DNA from: a virus
Reading direction: 5' to 3' (one strand)
Length of the DNA: 64,000 nt
Virus record (IMG/VR): IMGVR_UViG_3300025158_000005
Below, piece after piece: positions 3,959 to 40,331 of the stretch. Positions within the stretch are counted from its first letter, which is position 1, and each line of letters opens with the position of its first letter. The translations under genes and the position numbers were made by a program. The notes under the pieces were generated by a model. It was not told the DNA's origin. It ran no database searches and saw nothing but the letters and a program-made list of their open reading frames with translations.

Positions 3959-4708
3959 TTGTATTCTACCGATGATGAAGCACACACAATCGACAAACTG
4001 CGTGATCGTCGCAAAAAGAAAGTTCCCGCTGCAAAGAAAAGTTCCAGTTTCGATAATTTGGCGTTGAAGCATGTCGAACCTCTTACCGAAGCACAACGAC
4101 AACTTTTCTTTTCTGTCAAGGAAGGTTATAACGTAATCGCCGATGGAGCAGCAGGCAGCGGAAAGACTTATGGAGCAACTTATCTTGCACTCGAAAAGTT
4201 GTTCAACAAAGAAATCGATAAGGTGGTATTTGTCAGAAGTGCAGTCAATATTAGATCACAGGGGCACTTGCCCGGCACGCAAGACGAAAAAGAAGCAGTT
4301 TATACGATTCCCTTCAAGGAAATTGTAAATGATATTTGTGAGAACGGTACTGCCTGGGACATTTTGTTCAAGAAAGATTTGATCAAGTTTCTTACGACAA
4401 CATATATTCGTGGTATCACTCTAAAGAATTGTGTCATTATTTTTGATGAGTTTCAAAATGCAGATTCCGGGGAATTGTTTGCTGTTTCGTCAAGACTTGG
4501 TGAAAATTCAACGATTATATTTTGTGGCGACACATTTCAAGGAGACTTGAATCGAAAGCGTGAAAAGTCCGGGCATGATTGGTTGCTAAAAGTATCTGAT
4601 AAGATGCCCGATTATTTTGATGTTGTCAACTTCACATATTCGGACATTGTAAGATCGGAATTTGTAAAACAGATGGTTATGGCTGTAGACGTACTAGGAT
4701 TAGACTGA
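3959..4708 (+). CDS. phoH: PhoH-family ATPase
   Basis: GAAGSGKT, GHLPG, YIRGITL, DEFQN, GDTFQ, DIVRS. Confidence 0.93.
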   Translation: MYSTDDEAHTIDKLRDRRKKKVPAAKKSSSFDNLALKHVEPLTEAQRQLFFSVKEGYNVIADGAAGSGKTYGATYLALEKLFNKEIDKVVFVRSAVNIRSQGHLPGTQDEKEAVYTIPFKEIVNDICENGTAWDILFKKDLIKFLTTTYIRGITLKNCVIIFDEFQNADSGELFAVSSRLGENSTIIFCGDTFQGDLNRKREKSGHDWLLKVSDKMPDYFDVVNFTYSDIVRSEFVKQMVMAVDVLGLD

Positions 4709-5151
4709 TGAATATTGGAGATACAGGACTAGCATTAATAAAGAAATGGGAAGGATTTAGCGCAGAGGCTTACTTAGATTCTGTCGGAATTCCAACAATC
4801 GGCTACGGTACGATACGTCTTCCTAATGGAACTAGGGTGACTCTTGGAATGACATGCACAAAGGAAGAGGCTGAAGAGTGGCTTGAACATCATATCAATA
4901 ATAAGGTTACTCCATGCATCACTGAGACAGTTAAAGTGGCTCTAACACAACCAGAAATTGACGCTATATACTCATTCATATACAACTTAGGTTGTGCAAA
5001 CTTCAAGAGATCAACACTTCTGAAGAAGATAAACTCGGAGGATTTTGAGGGAGCATCCTTGGAATTCTCAAAATGGAACAGAGCAGGGCGAAAGGTTATT
5101 GCCGGACTTACTGCGCGGAGACAAGATGAAGCTAAATTATTTATTTCTTAG
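4708..5151 (+). CDS. GH24 lysozyme (endolysin)
   Basis: EG-x8-D-x5-T pattern (WEGFSAEAYLDSVGIPTIGYG), FKRSTLLKKIN, GLTARR. Confidence 0.92.
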   Translation: MNIGDTGLALIKKWEGFSAEAYLDSVGIPTIGYGTIRLPNGTRVTLGMTCTKEEAEEWLEHHINNKVTPCITETVKVALTQPEIDAIYSFIYNLGCANFKRSTLLKKINSEDFEGASLEFSKWNRAGRKVIAGLTARRQDEAKLFIS

Positions 5152-5551
5152 TTGTTTGTTATGGTCGTCGGTGGCTAGTGCTGCCGATATGATTCTTCCA
5201 ATCAACAACATTCATGATGGTGATACGATTGAAACATCCCTTCCAAGTATTCCTACACCGTTGAATAAGGTTGGTATTCGACTATACGGCATTGACACAC
5301 CCGAACTTCACGGTTACGCATGTGAGGATGAACATCAACTTGCGATAAAAGCAAGAAGCCGGCTAATATCAATATTTGGAACAGATAAAGTCATGCAAGT
5401 AAAAGATATGAAGTGGGATAAGTATGGTGGTAGAATTGATGGAAAGGTTCTTACTCTAAGTGGAACTGATGTTGGGCAGACTCTTATAAGTGAAGGTTTA
5501 GCCCATCCTTATTTTGGTGCTAAGAAAACCCCGTGGTGTCCTGTAAAATGA
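5126..5551 (+). CDS. thermonuclease (SNase) family protein with signal peptide
   Basis: DGDT, IRLYGIDTPE, DKYGGR; hydrophobic N-terminus. Confidence 0.9.
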   Translation: MKLNYLFLSCLLWSSVASAADMILPINNIHDGDTIETSLPSIPTPLNKVGIRLYGIDTPELHGYACEDEHQLAIKARSRLISIFGTDKVMQVKDMKWDKYGGRIDGKVLTLSGTDVGQTLISEGLAHPYFGAKKTPWCPVK

Positions 5552-6609
5552 ATAACGCTCAAATACGTACTCTTTTTATCACAAAACAGTCTGAGATTGA
5601 ATCTCAGCAATATCATGGTTACTTTAGACAGTTTTCGGGTTTGTTCAATTCCGCTCGTCTTGTTTCTGAAATGTTGAACGATCAACCCGGCATCGATTCA
5701 AAATGCATCACGGTACAAGATAACAACGGAATTGATCGTGAAGTTACGTTATATAAGCCTACTCATGTGTTTATCGAAGCATTCTGGGTTGTTCCTGAGA
5801 AGTTTAAAATTCTTAAAAAGTTGCATCCTGGTGTAAAATGGATTATCAGAATTCATTCAGAAACTCCATTCTTGAGTACCGAAGGCATCTCGATGGATTG
5901 GGCAATGAAGTATATCACGCAAAAGAATGTATATCTGGCACCAAACGCACCTAGAATATATAATGAAATCAAACATCTAGTGGCTAGTGTTCATGGGCAT
6001 GAGTTGAAGAAGAAAGTTATTTATCTTCCAAACTTCTATTCTGTCGATAATGTCATGCCAGCGAAGACTAAGTTGGGCACACCGGGTGAAATTCATATTG
6101 CGTGTTTTGGTGCAATTCGTCAACTAAAGAATCAACTGATTCAAGCAATATCCGCAATAAAATTCGCTGATAAACACAGACTTAAATTGAAGTTCCATAT
6201 AAACGGTAATCGCGTTGATTATGGTGGTAACCCAATTCTCAAAAATATTGTTGATTTGTTTTCACATCATCCCGAACATGAATTAATCCAACATGATTGG
6301 ATGCCTCATGAAGAATTTCTTGCGCTGATCAAAACTCTCGATATCGGTATGCAGGTTTCATTTACAGAAACATTCAATATCGTTACGGCTGATATGGTTA
6401 TATGTGGAATTCCCGTCGTTGTTTCTGATGAAGTTCAATGGTCGAGTATATTCAGTAAAGTTAATCCAACAGACAGTGATAATATAACGGCGACGATGGA
6501 ATTTGTTTGGAACTGGCATCCGTTTGTTCATTGGAGAAATACCAAGGGGTTGAAGAAATATTCTGATACGTCGAGAATATTATGGACCGACTACCTATAC
6601 AATAACTAA
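5548..6609 (+). CDS. GT-B fold glycosyltransferase
   Basis: FGAIRQLKN and SFTETFNIVTAD...GIPVVVS (Glycos_transf_1-like). Confidence 0.75.
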   Translation: MNNAQIRTLFITKQSEIESQQYHGYFRQFSGLFNSARLVSEMLNDQPGIDSKCITVQDNNGIDREVTLYKPTHVFIEAFWVVPEKFKILKKLHPGVKWIIRIHSETPFLSTEGISMDWAMKYITQKNVYLAPNAPRIYNEIKHLVASVHGHELKKKVIYLPNFYSVDNVMPAKTKLGTPGEIHIACFGAIRQLKNQLIQAISAIKFADKHRLKLKFHINGNRVDYGGNPILKNIVDLFSHHPEHELIQHDWMPHEEFLALIKTLDIGMQVSFTETFNIVTADMVICGIPVVVSDEVQWSSIFSKVNPTDSDNITATMEFVWNWHPFVHWRNTKGLKKYSDTSRILWTDYLYNN

Positions 6610-10969: not shown

Positions 10970-10977
10970 GTTTCAAA

Positions 10978-11050
10978 TGCGGCTTCTCAAGGGAGACTCC
11001 AGGCTCATAACCTGAGATGGGAGAGTGTTCGATTCATTCGGCCGCAACCA
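10978..11050 (+). tRNA. tRNA-Met(CAU), initiator-like, reduced D-arm
   Basis: Loop CTCATAA, acceptor TGCGGCT/GGCCGCA, ACCA. Confidence 0.7.
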
Positions 11051-11055
11051 GTTTT

Positions 11056-11135
11056 AGGATAAGTACAGCAACCAAACTATAATTGAAAGTCAGTCGGCTG
11101 TCCTGGCATTAAACAAAGCGACCAAACTTATCCTG
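11056..11135 (+). ncRNA. CAGCA-stem RNA A1
   Basis: AGGATAAGT-ACAGCAA ... ACTTATCCT-G. Confidence 0.75.
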
Positions 11136-11237
11136 TATTACATTGTCTGAAGCCCTTCCAGCATCTCCGAAGAATTTGCGTAGGGCAACTCGCTGAAAGA
11201 CAAAATTCCACGTTTGCGAGTATCGTGGACCAATAAT

Positions 11238-11320: not shown

Positions 11321-11358
11321 GGGCTTCTAGTGCTAACGGAAACACATCTGTCTCCACA
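11321..11358 (+). pseudogene. internally deleted tRNA remnant
   Basis: Acceptor and D-arm GGGCTTCTAGTGCTAACGGAAACAC fused directly to TCTCCACA. Confidence 0.5.
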
Positions 11359-11371
11359 AACGTAAACTTCT

Positions 11372-11379
11372 TATAAATA
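11372..11379 (+). promoter_or_regulatory. T4-type late promoter
   Basis: TATAAATA upstream of a GAGGAGG RBS. Confidence 0.7.
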
Positions 11380-11397
11380 CAAGTGAGGAGGTACTAT

Positions 11398-11762
11398 ATG
11401 CATTATTACTTGTATCAAATCACCAACAAGGTGAATGGGAAGATTTACGTAGGAGTTCATAAGACCCAAAATTTAGATGATGGGGTATATGGGTTCTGGA
11501 AAAGTTATTCGGGCTGCAATCGCAAAGCACGGCGCTCATAACTTCGAAAAAGTCATACTTGAGACTTTCGAGACTTCGGAAGCTATGTATGCGAGAGAAA
11601 ATAGGTTGTAACTGATGAATTTCTTCTGAGAGAAGACGTTTATAACCTCAGAAGAGGTGGTAGTGGTGGATTTGATTTTTTGAATAAAATCATGCCCATA
11701 TTGCGGAAAGACTGTCAGGGTGGCATAATGAAAAGATGGCATTTTGAAAAATGTAAATATAA
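11398..11762 (+). pseudogene. GIY-YIG (Seg-like) homing endonuclease, copy 1
   Basis: YYLYQITNKVNGKIYVGVH...YMGSG...YNLRRGG, broken by two frameshifts. Confidence 0.85.
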
Positions 11763-11841
11763 GGGGGATGGGACTGCTTGACGTGGTCACCGCACTTGCA
11801 ATGCGGACATCAGATCGGTTTGATGCCGATATCCTCCACCA
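11763..11841 (+). tRNA. tRNA-Ala(UGC)
   Basis: Loop CTTGCAA, G3:U70 pair, ACCA. Confidence 0.9.
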
Positions 11842-11848
11842 AAACAAT

Positions 11849-11925
11849 CCTTCTGTAGTTCAACTGGTTTAGAACAGGCGACCGATAATCGTCAGATTCA
11901 GGTTCAATCCCTGATGGAAGGACCA
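11849..11925 (+). tRNA. tRNA-Ile(GAU)
   Basis: Loop CCGATAA, ACCA. Confidence 0.88.
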
Positions 11926-12460: not shown

Positions 12461-12582
12461 AGGATGACTACAGCAATTAAAATCTCCTTCTAAGAGAGTG
12501 GTCGGTGGTTCGAATCCACCTCGGCGGTGAGGTTAAACTCGTCGTTGGTAGCTCAGTGGTAGAGCACTTAACGTTCATCCTG
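12461..12582 (+). ncRNA. CAGCA-stem RNA A2 carrying a circularly permuted tRNA-Arg(UCU)
   Basis: Order is anticodon arm, T-arm, closed acceptor hairpin, D-arm, all inside an AGGATGA/TCATCCT stem. Confidence 0.85.
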
Positions 12583-12593
12583 TTATATAAAAT

Positions 12594-12827: not shown

Positions 12828-12879
12828 CACAAAAGTAAACTTCTTACAAATACAAGTAATATGACAAACGGAGAAATCC

Positions 12880-13554
12880 TTGTTCTTTTACTTGTATCAA
12901 ATCACCAACAAGGTGAATGGGAAGATTTACGTAGGAGTTCATAAGACTCAAAATTTAGATGATGGGGTATACGGGCTCTGGAGCAATAATTCAACGAGCA
13001 ATTAAGAAATACGGCTTGGAGAATTTTGAAAAAGTCATACTTGAGACTTTCGAGACTTCGGAAGCTATGTATGCGAGAGAAAATAGGTTGTAACTGATGA
13101 ATTTCTTCTGAGAGAAGATGTTTATAACCTCAGAAGAGGTGGTCAGGGTGGGATTATATAAATTCTGACACTGAATCATTAAGGTTGAGAAATAAACAAA
13201 ATCGAAAAACACCAACCAAAAATTGTTTGAACGATACGGAGAAAATTGGTCGAGTATTGTTGGTAAACTTGGCGAAGTGGCCACTCAACTAGCGAATCCT
13301 GGTTTAGCTAGTAGCACAGCAAAGCGAGGACACTTAGAAGGATGGATTAGCTTTAAAGGAAAAATTCATTCAGAAGATACCAAAAAGTTAATGTCATTGA
13401 AAGCAAAAGAAAGACTAAAAATACCATCAAACAATTCTCAATTCGGAACATGTTGGATCTGGCACGAATTGATAGGAAATAAAAAATGTAAAAAGACGAT
13501 CTTTCTTTGTATCTCGAACAAGGATGGTATAAGGGAAGACGTATTAAGTTTTAG
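12880..13554 (+). pseudogene. GIY-YIG homing endonuclease, copy 2
   Basis: N-terminal region nearly identical to copy 1 with the same frameshifts; C-terminal FKGKIHSEDTKKLMS (NUMOD3-like). Confidence 0.85.
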
Positions 13555-13612
13555 GATGATTACAGCAACCAAAACAAAATCAAACTTTTCCTTTGACGAG
13601 AAAATCATCCTG
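13553..13612 (+). ncRNA. CAGCA-stem RNA A3 with a Gln(UUG)-like anticodon hairpin
   Basis: AGGATGATT-ACAGCAA ... TTTTC-CTTTGAC-GAGAA ... AATCATCCT-G. Confidence 0.75.
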
Positions 13613-13670
13613 TAATACATCGGTATACTCATCAACAAATATTTATATGAGTATACCGATAGAATAAAAA

Positions 13671-13748
13671 GCCTGGTTGACGGGAATTGGCATACCTAGC
13701 TCGCTTAGAACGAGTTGCTTCTCGGTTCGAGTCCGAGGCCAGGCACCA
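13671..13748 (+). tRNA. tRNA-Leu(UAG)
   Basis: GCTCG-CTTAGAA-CGAGT, ACCA. Confidence 0.9.
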
Positions 13749-13757
13749 AGTTTCAAT

Positions 13758-13848
13758 ACCCATGTAGTTTAACGGTAAAACAGCGGATTTATATCCCGTA
13801 GCCACAGATAATGGGTCAATGAGAGTTCGACTCTCTCCGTGGGTACCA
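13758..13848 (+). tRNA. tRNA-Ile(UAU) with long variable region
   Basis: Loop TTTATAT, T-arm GAGAG-TTCGACT-CTCTC, ACCA. Confidence 0.75.
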
Positions 13849-13855
13849 AGTTTAT

Positions 13856-13947
13856 GGAAGTGTGGCAGAGCATGGTTTAATGCAGCGGATTTGAAATCCG
13901 CCGACCCAGTGATGGGTCCGTGGGTTCAAATCCTACCACTTCCGCCA
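13856..13947 (+). tRNA. tRNA-Ser(UGA)
   Basis: GCGGA-TTTGAAA-TCCGC, long variable arm, GCCA. Confidence 0.93.
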
Positions 13948-13953
13948 TTTAAT

Positions 13954-14042
13954 GGGAAAATCGCTCAACGGTAGAGCAAGCATTTTGACAAAAATGTTTA
14001 CGACAAAATACATATTTGTTTCGATTCCAAAGTTTCCCACCA
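13954..14042 (+). tRNA. aberrant tRNA-Val(GAC)-like gene
   Basis: Intact D-arm and ACCA; anticodon arm with an even-sized loop around GAC; weak T-arm. Confidence 0.5.
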
Positions 14043-14058
14043 ATTTTATAAGTTCAAT

Positions 14059-14133
14059 GGTGACGGTAGCTTAATGTAAAGCCTCTGACTGTGAATCAGA
14101 GAGTTGTCAGGTCATAACTGATGCGCCACCCCA
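14059..14133 (+). tRNA. tRNA-His(GUG)
   Basis: TCTGA-CTGTGAA-TCAGA, G-1/C73, CCA. Confidence 0.85.
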
Positions 14134-14139
14134 AATTAT

Positions 14140-14214
14140 ACTCTCGTAGCTCAATGCCAGAGTAGATGCCTCTAAAACATCTTGTTGTCGGTTCGAGCCC
14201 GACTGAGAGTACCA
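14140..14214 (+). tRNA. amber suppressor tRNA (CUA)
   Basis: GATGC-CTCTAAA-ACATC; canonical T-arm; ACCA. Confidence 0.85.
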
Positions 14215-14325
14215 ATATTATCAATCAACAGGAGCATGAATCATGTTGTAGGTTCTAAATCACGGTCCTCCATAAATGTAAGTTTAATTTTAGTAGTTAA
14301 ACCATTTACATTTTAGAAGATAGAC

Positions 14326-14553
14326 ATGAACAAGATTTTGGCAAAAGAACAATATTTGATCATTAAACACCAATGGAATAACAATGCCCGCGGGCATTCA
14401 GCCTCGATGCATTTGATGTATAACCTTCTTAGATCATATGCACCAGATCGTGGATTTTGCGCGATTACAAGCACTAGAAAGTTAAACGCCCACAATAATG
14501 ATGCGTGGTTGTCATATATGCTTCAACGATATCGATCATCATATGTTCTTTGA
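14326..14553 (+). CDS. hypothetical protein (possibly truncated)
   Basis: 75-aa ORF downstream of the amber mini-ORF. Confidence 0.5.
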   Translation: MNKILAKEQYLIIKHQWNNNARGHSASMHLMYNLLRSYAPDRGFCAITSTRKLNAHNNDAWLSYMLQRYRSSYVL

Positions 14554-14650
14554 ACCTGACTGTAATTCGTGCACAGCAATAGCAACACATCCTTTGAAAG
14601 GTTCTGAGCGAAAGTCGATCAAGATGTTTCAAACGATGAAGTAACAAATT

Positions 14651-14727
14651 GCCCCGATAGCTTAACGGAATAGAGCTAAGGTCTTCTACACCTTTAGATG
14701 GGAGTTCGAATCTCTCTCGGGGCGCCA
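14651..14727 (+). tRNA. tRNA-Arg(UCU)
   Basis: AAGGT-CTTCTAC-ACCTT, GCCA. Confidence 0.92.
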
Positions 14728-14733
14728 AGTTTT

Positions 14734-14786
14734 AGGATAATTCCAGCAATCAAAATTCTTTCATATAGAAACCAAAAATTATCCTG
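14734..14786 (+). ncRNA. CAGCA-stem RNA A4 with a Met(CAU)-like anticodon hairpin
   Basis: AGGATAATT-CCAGCAA ... TTCT-TTCATAT-AGAA ... AATTATCCT-G. Confidence 0.75.
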
Positions 14787-15027
14787 TTTTATTCGCCCAA
14801 TGGAAAGTTTATTACGATAGAATATTTTATGTCTGTATCTCCGTCTGATCCCAATCCAAAGGGGATAATGTTCTATACGTTAGAAGCAGCGACTAAACAT
14901 AAGTCGGAGATGGATGCAATGATTGATTCATATAACGATCCTTCTTCAGGAGTATGGAACAAGGATTACTGGAAAGAGCTTCCTCAAAAGTGGAAGATTT
15001 TTCGTTGAAAGTTGATAAAGAAATATC

Positions 15028-15329: not shown

Positions 15330-15690
15330 ATTCGATGAAGGCTAGGAAAGATGCTGCGGACAGGGGTTCGACTCCCCTCTGCTCCACCAGAAAGAAATCT
15401 AAATGCATATGCATACTACCGAAAGGCTGGGCTAACATGGCGGTTAGTTTAGATTTCTTCCTAATGGGGCAGTCCCGGTTTCGACGTGGTAGACGAGTAC
15501 AATGCTGGAGGATCGGCAAATGTTGGAAGCCGTTAGGATTGGGATTTCCCGGTCTAAGAAGACACAAGCAGAAATGCAAACATGGAAGCGTCTAACGATG
15601 CAACTTACGAGGTTCGTCTGGCTGCTTAATTGCAGACTGATCTAGACTCAGAGTTTCGCCGATTGTACTTGGTAACAGAAACAGTCGGCA
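15330..15690 (+). ncRNA. ssrA: two-piece (circularly permuted) tmRNA; outer ends approximate
   Basis: Acceptor piece GGACAGGGGTTCGACTCCCCTCTGCTCCACCA (ends 15389) precedes the 5' piece GGGGCAG...TTCGAC (starts 15466); tag frame ...ASNDATYEVRLAA-TAA ends 15629. Confidence 0.92.
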
Positions 15691-37508: not shown

Positions 37509-37566
37509 TTGACGAAAAATAAGTTTTACTATATAATAGATGTATAAGTTATAAACTGCTCTTTAA
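37509..37566 (+). promoter_or_regulatory. sigma70 promoter followed by boxA
   Basis: TTGACG-17-TATAAT (37509-37537); TGCTCTTTAA (37557-37566). Confidence 0.75.
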
Positions 37567-37575
37567 TGATATATT

Positions 37576-37775
37576 AGGATAGATACAGCAACAAATTTTA
37601 AAAGACCTACTAAGATTGCCCTAACTTGTGTGAAAGGCTGACTACCGGGAAAGACGGTGACAACTTGGAAAGACACGTTAGAGCCAACGTCGAATCAGTT
37701 GGTGATGTTCAAGGAAATTACTTGATGACACTTGAAAAGACAAGTGCTAAGGGGAAAGCCATGATCTCTATCCTG
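37576..37775 (+). ncRNA. CAGCA-stem RNA A5 (long, multi-hairpin)
   Basis: AGGATAGAT-ACAGCAA ... TCTATCCT-G. Confidence 0.75.
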
Positions 37776-37792
37776 TTAAAGTTGTAAAATTT

Positions 37793-37896
37793 AGGATGAC
37801 TACAGCATACACTTAAAATATCGCTAATGCCTAGAAGTTATAAGGGTCCGGCGCCGAGTATATACGGACGTGGGACCTAGGGCTTCTGTTATCCTG
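37793..37896 (+). ncRNA. CAGCA-stem RNA A6
   Basis: AGGATGACT-ACAGCAT ... GTTATCCT-G. Confidence 0.75.
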
Positions 37897-37914
37897 TCAA
37901 AATGAAGTAGTTTT

Positions 37915-37983
37915 AGAATGTTTGCAGCAAACACTATCTGCAAAGCGATTCCGAGGGACTTATAAATCCCCTCAAACATTCTG
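37915..37983 (+). ncRNA. CAGCA-stem RNA A7
   Basis: AGAATGTTT-GCAGCAA ... AAACATTCT-G (compensatory G-C to A-T change). Confidence 0.75.
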
Positions 37984-38003
37984 TTAATTATTGGAGTAAT
38001 ACA

Positions 38004-38492
38004 ATGAACACTTTTGCACAAGCAGTAAACGCTCCCGCAGTTACCTCAACCACCAACGGCATGAAGGCTTTTACCAACACTGGCAAGTCTATTGTCGACC
38101 TGTTTTATTCGATCGGCTCGTCACGTAATGCACAACCTAAGATTGCTGCTGAATTCTCTCGCGCATTCGCCGAGGACAAGACCCTAGCGGCTCGTACCCT
38201 ATTTTGGGCACGTGATATTCGTGGCGGCGCGGGCGAACGTTTGACGTTCCGTAATCTGATGTTACAGTTGGAAAAGACTGACGTGAACGCATGTAAGCGG
38301 CTAATTCCGTTGATCCCCGAATATGGTCGTTGGGATGATCTGTTGATCTTCACCGCGGCTGATACCAAGGAAGTTGCATATAAAATTATATCAAAAACTC
38401 TCAAAAATGGGATAAAATCCCGTCACATATTGGAAATAATTGAATCGTTGTCTGAAGATGATTGTAAAGAATTGTTGGAGCATTTTGAATAA
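38004..38492 (+). CDS. DUF2828 (TROVE/Ro60-like) protein, N-terminal half
   Basis: TTNG, VDLF, LFWARDIRGGAGER, IPEYGRWDDL. Confidence 0.85.
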   Translation: MNTFAQAVNAPAVTSTTNGMKAFTNTGKSIVDLFYSIGSSRNAQPKIAAEFSRAFAEDKTLAARTLFWARDIRGGAGERLTFRNLMLQLEKTDVNACKRLIPLIPEYGRWDDLLIFTAADTKEVAYKIISKTLKNGIKSRHILEIIESLSEDDCKELLEHFE

Positions 38493-39232
38493 TGTCTAAC
38501 GATGTTTGCATTATCAATTTCTTTTTTGCATATCATACAGCAGCACAATAATGGTTTAACTCTACATTTACTCATCTCACCAGTAAAATGTGGGCAATTA
38601 TTAAAATGATGTTGTTTCATTGCACCGTAATTGGTTCCAATTTTGCCGCAATGTGGACAAGTAAATTCTCCAACTAACGGTTTAGGTTTTGAATATGTAT
38701 TATTCTCAATCAGTTTCATAATATTCAATTTCGCGGCATCTGATCTATTTTTGATATGTTCTTGATCTACGGCTGGATTAAATTTACAATTATCACCATG
38801 AAATCTAATATAATTTCCAGGATCAGTTTCTCGATTACAATGTGGGCACAATTTCTTTTGAGTGTGTTTTCTAGCTTGACTTATATTAAATCGTCTCTCG
38901 TCAGAACATGGTTTATGTTTAAACGGCAACATTATTTTAATCTCAAATGGAGTTAAAGATTGTCTTTTTGTAAAAAATGTCATAGCGTGTTCCATTTTGT
39001 ATTTGTCTGATCCACTGGTCATTTTAGTCAGCAACCAATGACAAACAAAATGTTCTTTAATGCTAAGATAAACAAGTTGATTATTTTTAATAATAGATTT
39101 AGGATAAATGTGATGACCTTCTACTTCTCCTAGCATTAATTTAGCATCTTTTCTTGTTTTCGCCCGGGCAATAGCTTTATCTATTATTTGAAAATACCAC
39201 TTAGTGTATTTGTTGTCTATAAAATGAATCAT
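38423..39232 (-). mobile_element. HNH homing endonuclease inserted antisense within the DUF2828 gene
   Basis: NKYTKWY, EGHHIYPKS, EHFVCHWLL; repeated CPHC...H..NC modules; AT-rich. Confidence 0.88.
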
Positions 39233-39299: not shown

Positions 39300-40331
39300 A
39301 TGTCTTACAAAACACAATTAGAATCAATCTGTCGTCAAAATTTGTCTAGCGCGCAGTTGTGCGCTAAGTGGCAAGATCGTAAAGGGCTGGCAGCAGTCGA
39401 ATTGCGTAAGTTCATGAAGATGACGCCAAAGCAGTATCGCAAGACTTTGGTTTCAATGACTAACGTCGTTGAACAGTCAATGTGTGCCCAAGAATGGGAT
39501 AAGATCGAATTTGACAAGTTGCCTTCTGTTGCGTCAAAGATTTACATGAAGGCATTCACCAAGAATGCGACCGCGCAATATATGAAGTACAAGGAAGCCT
39601 TGACGAAGGGCGAAGCGAAGATCAATGCATCGGCGATCTTCCCGTACCAAGTTATTCAAGGTATGCGCCGTGGTGACGCAACCGTTGGTATGGCGCAATG
39701 GGGCGCACTGCCTAACTATTTGGGCGATGATAAGATTCTGACTATGGTAGACGTGTCGGGGTCAATGAACTGCCCTGCTGGCAGCAACGTGAGTTGTATG
39801 GATATTGCAGTGTCTCTTGGTCTGTATATTGCAGATAAGCAACAAGGCGCATTCAACGGCATGTTCTTGACGTTCTCGGAGAAGCCTCAATTGGTGCAGT
39901 TGACCGGTAACATTCAACAAAAGATGTCGCAAATGCAACGCTCCGACTGGGGTATGAACACCAACATCACCGCGGCATTCGATGAAGTATTGGAGGTGGC
40001 AACTCGTAACAAGGTTGAAGTATCTGAAATGCCCAAGTTCATCTTGATCATGTCAGATATGCAGTTTGATAGATGCTCCAACATGTCTGGGCTGGAAATG
40101 ATTCGTACAAAGTATGAAGCGGCAGGGTACGAAGTTCCGAAGATTGTTTTCTGGAACTTGAATGCAATACACGCAAACGCGCCGACGACGGTCCGTACAG
40201 ATGGTGTTGCATTGATTTCAGGATTCTCGCCTGCAATCATGAAGTCCGTGTTGAAAGCAGAAAACTTTGATCCATTGTCGATTGTTATGCAAACGATTAA
40301 CGGTCCTCGTTATCAGATGATTGAACTGTAA
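39300..40331 (+). CDS. DUF2828 protein, C-terminal half with vWA domain
   Basis: CAKW, YRKTL, MIDAS motif DVSGSM, TFS, WGMNTN, SDMQFD, VFWNL, SGFSP. Confidence 0.9.
   Translation: MSYKTQLESICRQNLSSAQLCAKWQDRKGLAAVELRKFMKMTPKQYRKTLVSMTNVVEQSMCAQEWDKIEFDKLPSVASKIYMKAFTKNATAQYMKYKEALTKGEAKINASAIFPYQVIQGMRRGDATVGMAQWGALPNYLGDDKILTMVDVSGSMNCPAGSNVSCMDIAVSLGLYIADKQQGAFNGMFLTFSEKPQLVQLTGNIQQKMSQMQRSDWGMNTNITAAFDEVLEVATRNKVEVSEMPKFILIMSDMQFDRCSNMSGLEMIRTKYEAAGYEVPKIVFWNLNAIHANAPTTVRTDGVALISGFSPAIMKSVLKAENFDPLSIVMQTINGPRYQMIEL

What the first reader, a model, noticed from the sequence alone, without database searches (positions are those of the whole stretch)
13553..14786. Minimal family members display lone anticodon stem-loops with different anticodons
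Seen: A3 carries only TTTTC-CTTTGAC-GAGAA (7-nt loop, UUG, Gln) and A4 only TTCT-TTCATAT-AGAA (7-nt loop, CAU, Met). A2 has CTTCTAA (UCU, Arg). All fit the Y-U-NNN-A-N anticodon-loop pattern. Similar heptamers follow CAGCA in A1 (TTGAAAG, Phe), A6 (CTTAAAA, Leu) and A7 (CTGCAAA, Cys), but their stems are poor and such heptamers arise easily in AT-rich DNA. Established: hosts use anticodon nucleases such as PrrC, RloC, VapC and PARIS AriB against phage. Inference: these are a panel of anticodon decoys, or specificity modules, on a common protein handle.
Basis: partly seen in the sequence, partly recalled or inferred. Interest (0 to 1): 0.8.

Follow-up and report, generated by a model that had tools for sequence, protein, structure and literature searches.

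The report
Anticodon-arm RNAs on a Ro60-like handle
Two tiny RNA genes in this phage's tRNA cluster are the smallest members of a large, undescribed phage RNA family: a conserved "handle" that travels with a Ro60-shaped protein, carrying in many members only a tRNA-like anticodon hairpin, perhaps as bait for proteins that read or cut tRNA anticodon loops.

Summary
A4 (14734-14787) carries UUCU-UUCAUAU-AGAA as described, and A2 carries CUUCUAA. All of these stems are thermodynamically marginal.

The pattern is strong across the family. I collected 247 unique elements from 170 loci, against 3 hits in a reversed-sequence control. All share a covarying 7-bp end stem, UNCAGCAA and a 3' GU. Of 66 non-redundant minimal members, 28 have a 7-nt loop (2.5 expected from shuffles) and 17 read CU-NNN-AA (0.06 expected). 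Positions 32, 33, 37 and 38 are conserved while 34-35 vary; 17 triplets occur across 76 such arms of all sizes.

The handle sits directly upstream of a DUF2828+vWA gene whose predicted fold matches Ro60. The family also occurs in the cultured phages RSP15, S13, BUCT-ZZ01, Bas63 and LeBron.

My reading is that these are Y-RNA-like partner RNAs with tRNA-derived modules. A decoy role against anticodon nucleases is plausible but untested.

No Rfam family reaches threshold. The nearest are YrlA and, for the handle, the Dictyostelium Class I RNAs.

This scan has already reported the same family on this window and on at least eight other genomes, including the anticodon-arm-only members and the Class I resemblance. 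My results reproduce those reports independently.

The parts
13553..13613 (+). A3, a minimal handle RNA. It consists of a 5' strand AGGAUGAUU, then ACAGCAA, a 34-nt interior, a 3' strand AAUCAUCCU, and GU.
13580..13596 (+). A3 hairpin in register with the family: UCAAA-CUUUUCC-UUUGA (triplet UUU, positions 37-38 = CC).
   Evidence: Alignment A2. It adds -0.1 kcal/mol to the handle.
13586..13602 (+). It overlaps the one above and the two exclude each other.
   Evidence: adds -1.0 kcal/mol; pair probability 5% or less
14734..14787 (+). A4, a minimal handle RNA lying 6 nt after the end of tRNA-Arg(UCU).
   Evidence: Rfam RF01414 scores 26.4 bits over the full model.
14756..14770 (+). A4 hairpin UUCU-UUCAUAU-AGAA (triplet CAU). 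Homologs carry UUUAUAU (L070) and UGCAUAU (L030). The phage's own tRNA-Ile(UAU) has the loop UUUAUAU.
12461..12583 (+). A2: the handle carrying an anticodon arm (12483-12497, CUUCUAA), a T arm, an acceptor-like hairpin and a D arm, i.e. a permuted tRNA-like body.
   Evidence: YrlA RF02553 scores 31.7 bits, below threshold.
11056..11136 (+). A1, a handle RNA with no anticodon-like arm. It follows a tRNA-like gene at about 10975-11050.
37576..37776 (+). A5, a 201-nt handle RNA in the leader of the Ro-like gene.
37793..37897 (+). A6, a 105-nt handle RNA in the same leader.
37915..37984 (+). A7, a 70-nt handle RNA (AGAAU variant) ending 20 nt before the start codon.
37509..37537 (+). Promoter-like site TTGACG-17-TATAAT upstream of A5-A7. 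No terminator-like site lies between it and the gene.
38004..38492 (+). N-terminal half of the DUF2828 (Ro60-fold) gene.
39300..40331 (+). C-terminal half of the same gene (end of DUF2828, plus the DUF7788/vWA domain with a DxSGS MIDAS motif).
38423..39232 (-). Antisense homing-endonuclease ORF that splits the Ro-like gene.
   Evidence: phrog_655
14651..14727 (+). tRNA-Arg(UCU) directly upstream of A4. The junction reads CCA-AGUUUU-AGGAU.

Best explanation
A3 and A4 are the smallest members of a phage small-RNA family defined by a terminal handle. The handle is a 7-bp stem joining the two ends (AG... paired with ...CU), a non-paired position, then U-N-CAGCAA on the 5' side and GU after the 3' strand. 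I infer that these RNAs are cut out of tRNA-array transcripts and bind, through the handle, the phage's Ro60-fold DUF2828+vWA protein, as Y RNAs bind Ro60.

The interior is a tRNA-derived module. In some members it is a whole permuted or unpermuted tRNA body. In others it is the T, acceptor and D arms, as in YrlA. In the minimal members of this clade it is a single A/U-rich hairpin of 5 bp with a 7-nt loop. That hairpin is homologous to the anticodon arm of the larger members. It keeps the anticodon-loop frame (C32, U33, A37, A38) while positions 34-35 vary.

The most likely job of this arm is to be recognised by a protein that reads anticodon loops. The RNP would then act as a bait or adaptor in the conflict over tRNA, involving host tRNA-cutting nucleases or tRNA repair or modification enzymes.

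What is shown: the RNA structure, the family, the genomic linkage and the protein fold. What is inferred: binding to the protein, processing from tRNA transcripts, and the bait function.

My odds for each step: a structured RNA family, 0.95. The anticodon-arm frame is under selection in about 45% of minimal members, 0.75. Partner of the Ro-like protein, 0.7. Decoy for anticodon nucleases specifically, 0.2-0.25.
For: Family and structure.
- The 14-base 5' motif fetched 120 viral loci. In 90 of 132 motif matches the complementary 3' strand plus G lies within 400 nt.
- A relaxed scan of 1.88 Mb found 268 elements, against 3 in reversed sequence.
- The handle pairs at alignment columns 10-63 and 11-62 show all four Watson-Crick pair types, and columns 13-60 alternate between U-A and U-G. 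Columns 12-61 are unpaired in 37 of 50 sequences. All five pairs of the inner helix show compensatory changes.
- In the protein-seeded loci every element lies on the gene's strand.

Link to tRNA transcripts.
- 39% of elements have CCA within 10 nt upstream, against 11% of random positions.

Anticodon-like loops.
- Enrichment over shuffles and per-position information content: position 33, 1.56 bits; position 37, 1.05; position 35, 0.28.
- 55 of 124 unique minimal elements are strictly CU-NNN-AA.
- A34 occurs once in 76, and a single stem carries up to five different triplets.
- The loops match those of the phage's own tRNAs.
- The same arm, UUUGA-CUUCUAA-UCAAA, occurs both in minimal members and in full tRNA-like members.
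- The arm is not a copy of the neighbouring tRNA: 0 of 25 share its anticodon.

Link to the protein.
- 98 unique elements lie 0-900 nt upstream of a DUF2828 start codon on the same strand.
- The AlphaFold model (pLDDT 77) has Ro60 structures as its top full-length matches: phage phiLo 9l5y/9kop at E = 2e-9 and TM 0.56, then Xenopus, Deinococcus and human Ro60.
- phiLo Ro60 binds Y-like RNAs encoded upstream of its own gene (PMC12135203).

RNA-repair and defence context.
- An RNA-ligase-like gene lies in 16 of the 49 protein-seeded loci (18 loci in all) and directly upstream of the homolog in phage GAP32.
- Bas63 gp130 is a homolog at 39% identity with four handle RNAs in the tRNA array beside it. 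A preprint reports that it counters the Ppl defence system (10.1101/2024.10.10.617714).
Against: - No expression or binding data exist for any member.
- The hairpins in A3 and A4 are barely stable, and A3 has lost A37/A38.
- Fewer than half of the minimal members have an anticodon-like loop.
- In RSP15, BUCT-ZZ01 and Bas63, position 33 is often C or A.
- 93% of the triplets end in U or A. This could partly reflect A/T-rich composition rather than tRNA identity, and my CU...AA filter favours it.
- The displayed triplet shows no association with whether the locus has a true tRNA of that anticodon: 37 of 49 observed, 34.8 expected.
- The elements are related to one another, so shuffle statistics overstate independence.
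- The anticodon-type minimal members lie in tRNA arrays rather than beside the protein gene: only 4 of 27 gene-proximal minimal members are of this type. Their link to the protein therefore rests on the shared handle alone.
Confidence: 0.55

Rival explanations
1. The RNAs are free-standing decoys. They work without the Ro-like protein, as pseudo-substrates that soak up host anticodon nucleases such as PrrC, RloC, AriB, Cas13 or colicin-like enzymes. The handle only gives stability and defined ends.
For: The anticodon-type minimal members sit in tRNA arrays rather than by the protein gene. The displayed triplets include those of known nuclease targets (Lys UUU, Asn, Tyr, Asp, Arg, Met). The list of nuclease targets is from my own knowledge.
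Against: The same invariant CAGCAA handle marks the gene-proximal RNAs in about 95 loci. Conservation of an unpaired motif suggests a specific binder. Nuclease recognition usually also needs tRNA modifications or the tRNA body (general knowledge, not tested here).
Confidence: 0.15
2. The hairpin is a vestige. Minimal members descend from tRNA-like members by loss of arms, and the remaining hairpin is only a spacer or stabiliser. The functional part is the handle, which might titrate or regulate the Ro-like protein. The anticodon look then has no present meaning.
For: The same arm occurs in full and minimal members. A3 has a degenerate loop and all stems are weak. More than half of minimal members have other loops. 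The displayed triplet shows no link to the locus's tRNA set.
Against: The stem covaries at all five pairs. Positions 32, 33, 37 and 38 stay fixed while 34-35 turn over on identical stems. A34 is avoided.
Confidence: 0.2
3. The elements are punctuation for processing tRNA-array transcripts, such as sites or clamps for RNase E, P or Z, or cis-acting leaders. They are not trans-acting RNAs.
For: They directly follow tRNA 3' ends with a conserved GUUUU spacer. A5-A7 lie in the mRNA leader between a promoter-like site and the gene.
Against: This does not explain the invariant CAGCAA, the tRNA-like bodies, the size classes, or the tight linkage to one protein family across unrelated phages.
Confidence: 0.07
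4. Chance: heptamers of the form Y-U-NNN-R-N with short flanking complements simply arise easily in A/T-rich DNA.
For: Each window hairpin alone is marginal: shuffles produce one 0.5-5% of the time, and the energy gain is near zero.
Against: Family-level counts are 17-28 observed against 0.06-2.5 expected, and the stems covary.
Confidence: 0.02

Closest known systems
Ro60/Rsr with Y RNAs, especially bacterial and phage YrlA (Rfam RF02553; Chen et al. 2014, PMC4201824), and phage phiLo Ro60 with Yrl1/Yrl2 (PMC12135203)
   Same: The RNA ends pair into a stem next to a short conserved unpaired motif. The RNA genes lie beside the gene for a ring-shaped HEAT+vWA protein. The variable part mimics tRNA. 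The medium-sized family members hit the YrlA model below threshold (25.9-48.9 bits).
   Different: The protein belongs to the DUF2828/DUF7788 family, not Pfam TROVE. Its sequence match to TROVE is marginal (E = 0.04). The motif is UNCAGCAA rather than GNCGAA(N)G. YrlA has no anticodon arm, since the Ro-binding stem occupies that place. Here many members carry only an anticodon-like arm. There are many copies per genome, scattered through tRNA arrays.
Class I RNAs of dictyostelid social amoebas (Rfam RF01414; Kjellin et al. 2021, PMC7919456)
   Same: A terminal stem of 6-7 bp with compensatory changes. A conserved ...U(U)ACAGCAA motif directly after the 5' strand. Conserved ends (A)AG... and ...CUGU. 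A length near 60 nt with a variable interior, plus a few longer members with inserts. RF01414 is the only non-tRNA, non-YrlA Rfam model that repeatedly hits the minimal elements: nine hits, all on the elements, all over the full model, at 21.9-29.1 bits.
   Different: All scores fall below the Rfam gathering score of 41.5. Class I RNAs are eukaryotic, have a DUSE promoter, and are reported to be unique to Dictyostelia. Their only known direct binder is the RRM protein Rnp1A. They show no anticodon-like arm. I could not test whether dictyostelids encode a DUF2828 protein.
Phage-encoded tRNAs that neutralise tRNA-targeting defences, e.g. the T5 tRNA against PARIS (PMC11464382)
   Same: Phage RNA genes in tRNA arrays whose anticodon loops matter in the conflict with host nucleases.
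   Different: Those are complete, chargeable tRNAs that replace cleaved host tRNAs. The minimal handle RNAs have no D arm, T arm, acceptor end or CCA, so they cannot act in translation.

Membership tests
YrlA / bacterial Y RNA (RF02553) | Reaches the Rfam gathering score (69 bits) | tested here: not met
   A3 and A4 give no hit. A2 scores 31.7 bits. The best relative, L028:3655-3779, scores 48.9 bits.
YrlA / bacterial Y RNA (RF02553) | tRNA-like domain with a T arm, an acceptor-like stem and a D arm | tested here: not met
   Absent from the minimal members A3 and A4 (0 of 124 have a T arm). Present in A2 and in 37 of 41 array-located elements of 75-135 nt.
YrlA / bacterial Y RNA (RF02553) | 5' motif GNCGAA(N)G, thought to contact Ro60 | tested here: not met
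   The conserved motif here is U-N-CAGCAA.
YrlA / bacterial Y RNA (RF02553) | Encoded next to a Ro60 (TROVE+vWA) gene | tested here: inconclusive
   The family lies next to a DUF2828+vWA gene with a Ro60 fold (Foldseek E = 2e-9, TM 0.56), but Pfam TROVE is not matched. A3 and A4 themselves are 23-24 kb from the gene.
Dictyostelium Class I RNA (RF01414) | Short stem joining the 5' and 3' ends, kept by compensatory changes | tested here: met
Dictyostelium Class I RNA (RF01414) | Conserved 11-nt motif (CCUUACAGCAA) next to the 5' strand of the stem | tested here: inconclusive
   U-N-CAGCAA is shared, so 7-8 of the 11 positions match. It sits one nucleotide closer to the stem.
Dictyostelium Class I RNA (RF01414) | Conserved termini AAG... 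and ...CUGU; length 42-65 nt | tested here: met
   The phage elements read UAG...CUGU, and the minimal members are 52-74 nt.
Dictyostelium Class I RNA (RF01414) | Reaches the Rfam gathering score (41.5 bits); DUSE promoter; dictyostelid host | tested here: not met
   Scores are 21.9-29.1 bits. The DNA is from a phage, and DUSE does not apply.
tRNA (RF00005) | Cloverleaf recognised by ARAGORN or the Rfam tRNA model | tested here: not met
   Neither tool calls A3 or A4.
Anticodon-nuclease decoy (a functional class, not a sequence family) | Bound or cleaved by a tRNA-targeting nuclease, and protects the phage | not testable with these tools

The most novel reading that the evidence does not exclude
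The CAGCAA-handle RNAs form one cross-kingdom family that includes the 20-year-old orphan Class I RNAs of Dictyostelium. All are RNA subunits of DUF2828-type Ro60-like proteins. In phages the anticodon-arm-only members serve as exchangeable specificity modules. Through them one protein scaffold engages, or protects against, factors that read particular anticodon loops.
Probability: 0.22. Interest if true: 0.9.

Novelty: new variant of a known kind. Interest (0 to 1): 0.75.

Why it matters
Ro60-Y RNA particles are known to mimic tRNA, but only through the elbow region (the T and D arms). Here a second Ro60-like protein family, present in more than 700 sequenced phage genomes, comes with its own RNA handle. 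It also comes with a graded series of cargoes, from a whole tRNA body down to a bare anticodon arm whose triplet varies.

This makes three things testable:
- what phage Ro-like proteins do. The Bas63 homolog is reported to counter a defence system.
- whether phages bait or recruit anticodon-reading enzymes.
- whether the unexplained Class I RNAs of social amoebas belong to the same kind of particle.

Cultured phages that carry the family are available for these experiments: E. coli phage Bas63, Ralstonia phage RSP15, Cronobacter phage S13, Synechococcus phage BUCT-ZZ01 and mycobacteriophage LeBron.

Tried and rejected
- Rfam at gathering thresholds on the whole window found only tRNAs and a permuted tmRNA. 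E-value scans gave only sub-threshold YrlA and Class I hits. One scan was swamped by tRNA hits and told me nothing about the minimal elements.
- KVP40-like phage ValKK3 and Rak2-like phage GAP32 encode the protein but show only chance-level matches to the AGRAT...CAGCA pattern.
- No whole genome is held for this window, so I could not count members outside it.
- I could not establish whether dictyostelids encode DUF2828. The proteome files in the paper's supplement are truncated, and motif look-ups there found nothing relevant. The protein atlas returned only viral clusters. Avesson et al. 2011, which lists the four Class I-binding proteins, is not held.
- DNA-level readings (inverted-repeat mobile element, endonuclease site) are rejected because of the G-U pairs, the strict strand bias and the co-orientation with tRNAs and the gene.
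- An intrinsic terminator is rejected: there is no G+C-rich stem or U tract.
- A pseudogene copy of the neighbouring tRNA is rejected: 0 of 25 share its anticodon.
- The idea that the displayed triplets mirror or complement the locus's own tRNA set is not supported.
- The heptamers in A1, A6 and A7 are not counted as anticodon arms because they have no stems.
Full report
SETTING. The window is A/T-rich DNA (about 41% G+C) from a large phage. It holds 26 tRNA genes between 9965 and 22033, including a CUA suppressor, plus a permuted tmRNA. The finding concerns a repeat family whose 5' motif, AGGATRATTMCAGCAA, occurs 11 times with up to 3 mismatches, against 2.25 expected. Seven of these are complete elements, all on the + strand: A1 11056-11136, A2 12461-12583, A3 13553-13613, A4 14734-14787, A5 37576-37776, A6 37793-37897 and A7 37915-37984. 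Each begins AGGAU (A7: AGAAU) plus 2-4 variable bases. Next comes U-N-CAGCA(A). Each ends with the complement of the first bases, followed by GU. The closing stems differ between copies by compensatory changes, and all fold as expected.

THE OBSERVATION IN THE WINDOW.

It also contains an overlapping alternative, UCAAA-CUUUUCC-UUUGA (13580-13596). In a 50-sequence alignment of minimal members the alternative is the one in register with the family hairpin. It matches L016:1200-1265 (UCAAA-CUUGUAA-UUUGA) in its whole stem and in four of seven loop positions. The A3 triplet is therefore more likely UUU, with C at positions 37 and 38.

All of these hairpins are marginal. They add between -0.1 and -1.0 kcal/mol to the handle, with pair probabilities of 5% or less for A3 and about 30% for A4. 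Shuffled interiors produce a stem of at least 4 bp around Y-U-NNN-R-N in 0.5-5% (A3) and 0.5-1.2% (A4) of trials.

THE FAMILY. In 90 of 132 motif occurrences the matching 3' strand, ending ATCCT, lies within 400 nt. A protein-seeded search added 49 more loci.

A relaxed scan of all 170 sources (1.88 Mb, both strands) found 268 elements, against 3 in reversed sequence. Of these, 247 are unique. Sizes fall into four groups: 52-74, about 90-135, about 155-200 and about 210-260 nt.

On the 50-sequence alignment, two handle pairs show all four Watson-Crick pair types. One handle position is unpaired in 37 of 50 sequences. The next pair alternates between U-A and U-G. All five pairs of the inner hairpin carry compensatory changes. 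Overall 91.8% of cells are paired, against 39-47% when the partner columns are slid. That alignment was selected for pairing, so the unselected counts are the fairer evidence.

The G-U pairs and the strict strand bias show that the structure exists at the RNA level. CCA lies within 10 nt upstream of 39% of elements, against 11% of random positions. This points to co-transcription with tRNAs.

Of 124 unique minimal elements, 66 remain after removing interiors that are 80% or more identical.
- 28 of the 66 have a 7-nt hairpin loop on a stem of at least 4 bp; dinucleotide shuffles give 2.5 +/- 1.5, with a maximum of 7.
- 20 fit YU...R. (0.2 expected).
- 17 fit CU...AA (0.06 expected).
- Information content per loop position is 0.94, 1.56, 0.57, 0.28, 0.84, 1.05 and 0.86 bits for positions 32 to 38.

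By motif search, 55 of 124 are strictly CU-NNN-AA, 22 carry UGG-type loops reminiscent of D loops, 6 fit loosely (A3 and A4 among them), and 41 are other kinds.

Across all sizes, 76 elements show 17 different triplets, the commonest being UGU, UUU, UCU, UGA, GUA and GUU. A34 occurs once. One and the same stem carries up to five triplets. No two such elements in one locus share a triplet: 0 of 27 pairs, against 2.95 expected, P = 0.037.

The loops are those of real tRNAs in this phage, such as CUGUUAA, CUGUAAA, CUUGUAA and CUGCUAA. A4's UUCAUAU resembles the UUUAUAU loop of the phage's tRNA-Ile(UAU). The stems, however, are A/U-rich, unlike those of the tRNAs.

The arm UUUGA-CUUCUAA-UCAAA occurs both in minimal members and in members that also have D and T arms. 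The minimal members are therefore reduced tRNA-like members, or the reverse.

Some caveats apply.
- None of the 25 elements that directly follow a tRNA shares its anticodon.
- The displayed triplet is unrelated to whether the locus has a true tRNA of that anticodon: 37 of 49 observed, 34.8 expected.
- 93% of triplets end in U or A, against 58% in the true tRNAs. My filter and the base composition both contribute to this.
- In more distant phages the 7-nt loops often have C or A at position 33.

THE PROTEIN. A5-A7 lie between a promoter-like site (37509-37537) and a gene that starts at 38004, with no terminator-like site in between. An antisense homing-endonuclease ORF splits that gene into 38004-38492 and 39300-40331. 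The halves match DUF2828 and DUF7788/vWA.

Among the fetched loci, 95 hold the start of a homologous gene, and 98 unique elements lie 0-900 nt upstream of it on the same strand. The large size classes are almost all gene-proximal. The anticodon-type minimal members are mostly elsewhere, in tRNA arrays: 46 of 97 there, against 4 of 27 near the gene.

A model of an intact homolog (pLDDT 77) matches Ro60 structures over its full length: phage phiLo at E = 2e-9 and TM 0.56, then Xenopus, Deinococcus and human Ro60. The sequence-level match to TROVE is marginal (E = 0.04).

Homologs occur in 704 phage records. In cultured phages the gene sits in or beside tRNA arrays. An RNA-ligase-like gene lies in 16 of the 49 protein-seeded loci, and directly upstream of the homolog in GAP32.

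CULTURED PHAGES. Canonical elements occur in Ralstonia phage RSP15 (5), Cronobacter phage S13 (3) and Synechococcus phage BUCT-ZZ01 (3).

With other stem sequences but the same architecture (stem, 2-4 nt, CAGCAA ... stem, then G plus U or G), there are four in the tRNA array beside E. coli phage Bas63 gene 130 and three directly after the Ro-like gene of mycobacteriophage LeBron. One element in each phage carries a YrlA-like tRNA body.

A preprint reports that Bas63 gp130 resembles Ro60, counters the Ppl defence system, and may use Y RNAs hidden among the tRNA genes. Phage phiLo Ro60 binds two Y-like RNAs encoded upstream of its gene and forms a complex with host PNPase.

COMPARISON WITH WHAT IS KNOWN. 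YrlA RNAs pair their ends, carry GNCGAA(N)G near the 5' end, and mimic the T, D and acceptor parts of tRNA. The Ro-binding stem takes the place of the anticodon arm. The present family has a different motif and a different protein family, and it includes members that are only an anticodon-like arm. No member reaches the YrlA threshold.

The handle itself resembles the Class I RNAs of dictyostelids. Those have a 6-bp end stem with compensatory changes and CCUUACAGCAA after the 5' strand. They start AAG, end CUGU, and are about 60 nt long with a variable interior. They are published as unique to Dictyostelia.

The Rfam Class I model hits nine of my independently defined minimal elements over its full length, at 21.9-29.1 bits. 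This is below its threshold of 41.5. For A4 alone, E = 0.002 when only that 121-nt stretch is searched. I rate shared ancestry or a shared protein partner at roughly 35-40%. Whether dictyostelids have a DUF2828 protein could not be tested.

MECHANISM. The structure, the family, the genomic linkage and the protein fold are shown. Three things are inferred: excision from tRNA transcripts, binding of the handle to the Ro-like ring, and recognition of the anticodon-like arm by a protein that reads anticodon loops. A decoy role against anticodon nucleases fits the context, but nothing here favours it over recruitment of repair or modification enzymes, or over a vestigial hairpin.

EARLIER NOTES OF THIS SCAN. 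The same family was already noted on this window (e1-5826829, e1-5826830, e1-5826841, e1-5826833) and on at least eight other genomes. Those notes include anticodon-arm-only RNAs (e1-5788546) and the Class I resemblance (e1-5706510, e1-5365677, e1-5820258). I had formed the Y-RNA-like reading before my first look-up of these notes. I had reached the Class I and family-wide results before the look-up that listed the reports from other genomes. The notes agree with my results.

Noticed in passing
window 14735-14786 and 13554-13612; L028:4536-4591, L028:5934-5987, L056:456-510 and others: The Rfam model of the Dictyostelium Class I RNAs (RF01414) hits the minimal handle RNAs over its full length at 21.9-29.1 bits (threshold 41.5). 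Class I RNAs share the end stem, ...UACAGCAA, the AG start and the CUGU end. They are published as unique to dictyostelids.
   Followed up: partly
L195 (E. coli phage Bas63, MZ501086) 4713-4786, 4881-4944, 5336-5409, 5423-5554: Four RNAs of the form AGACC...CAGCAA...GGUCUGG lie in the tRNA array just after gene 130, the Ro60-like counter-defence gene of the PhageMaP preprint. The last one is a permuted tRNA-like body and overlaps two small annotated reverse ORFs.
   Followed up: partly
L196 (mycobacteriophage LeBron) 3959-4016, 4026-4158, 4161-4211: Three tandem RNAs of the form GUG-stem...CAGCAA...stem-GU follow the Ro-like gene gp53. The middle one hits YrlA at 39.8 bits.
   Followed up: partly
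L170 (Vibrio phage ValKK3) 3478-3518: The leader of the DUF2828 gene has GACAUU-UU-ACAGCAA, and the complementary AAUGUC overlaps the start codon. This looks like a handle that could sequester the start codon, hinting at autoregulation.
   Followed up: no
minimal elements in many loci, e.g. L112:7432 region, L011:950, L028:5933: A second class of minimal members (22 of 124) has hairpin loops containing UUGG or UGG, such as AUUGGUA, which resemble tRNA D loops.
   Followed up: partly
window 10975-11050: A tRNA-like gene with a CUCAUAA loop, a T arm and a CCA end was missed by both ARAGORN and Rfam. It lies directly upstream of A1.
   Followed up: no
window 11355-11850 and 12828-13615: Two copies of a GIY-YIG/NUMOD3 homing-endonuclease cassette lie right after tRNA genes (repeats of 89-93% identity). 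The second looks broken, and its last ORF (13223-13615) reads through A3.
   Followed up: no
window 14140-14214 and 15331-15629: An amber-suppressor-type tRNA (anticodon CUA) and a permuted, two-piece tmRNA lie in the same array.
   Followed up: no
L060, L003, L147, L160 and 14 other loci; L171 1614-2879: An RNA-ligase-like gene recurs in the fetched loci with the DUF2828 gene: 18 loci in all, 16 of them among the 49 protein-seeded loci. It lies directly upstream of the homolog in GAP32 and about 300 nt downstream of it in L060 and L003.
   Followed up: partly
L175 (Cronobacter phage S13) 4396-4790: The record annotates a 121-nt tRNA-Ser and a 113-nt tRNA-OTHER just before a 137-nt handle RNA that carries a permuted tRNA-like body. 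These oversized tRNA annotations may be misread family members.
   Followed up: no
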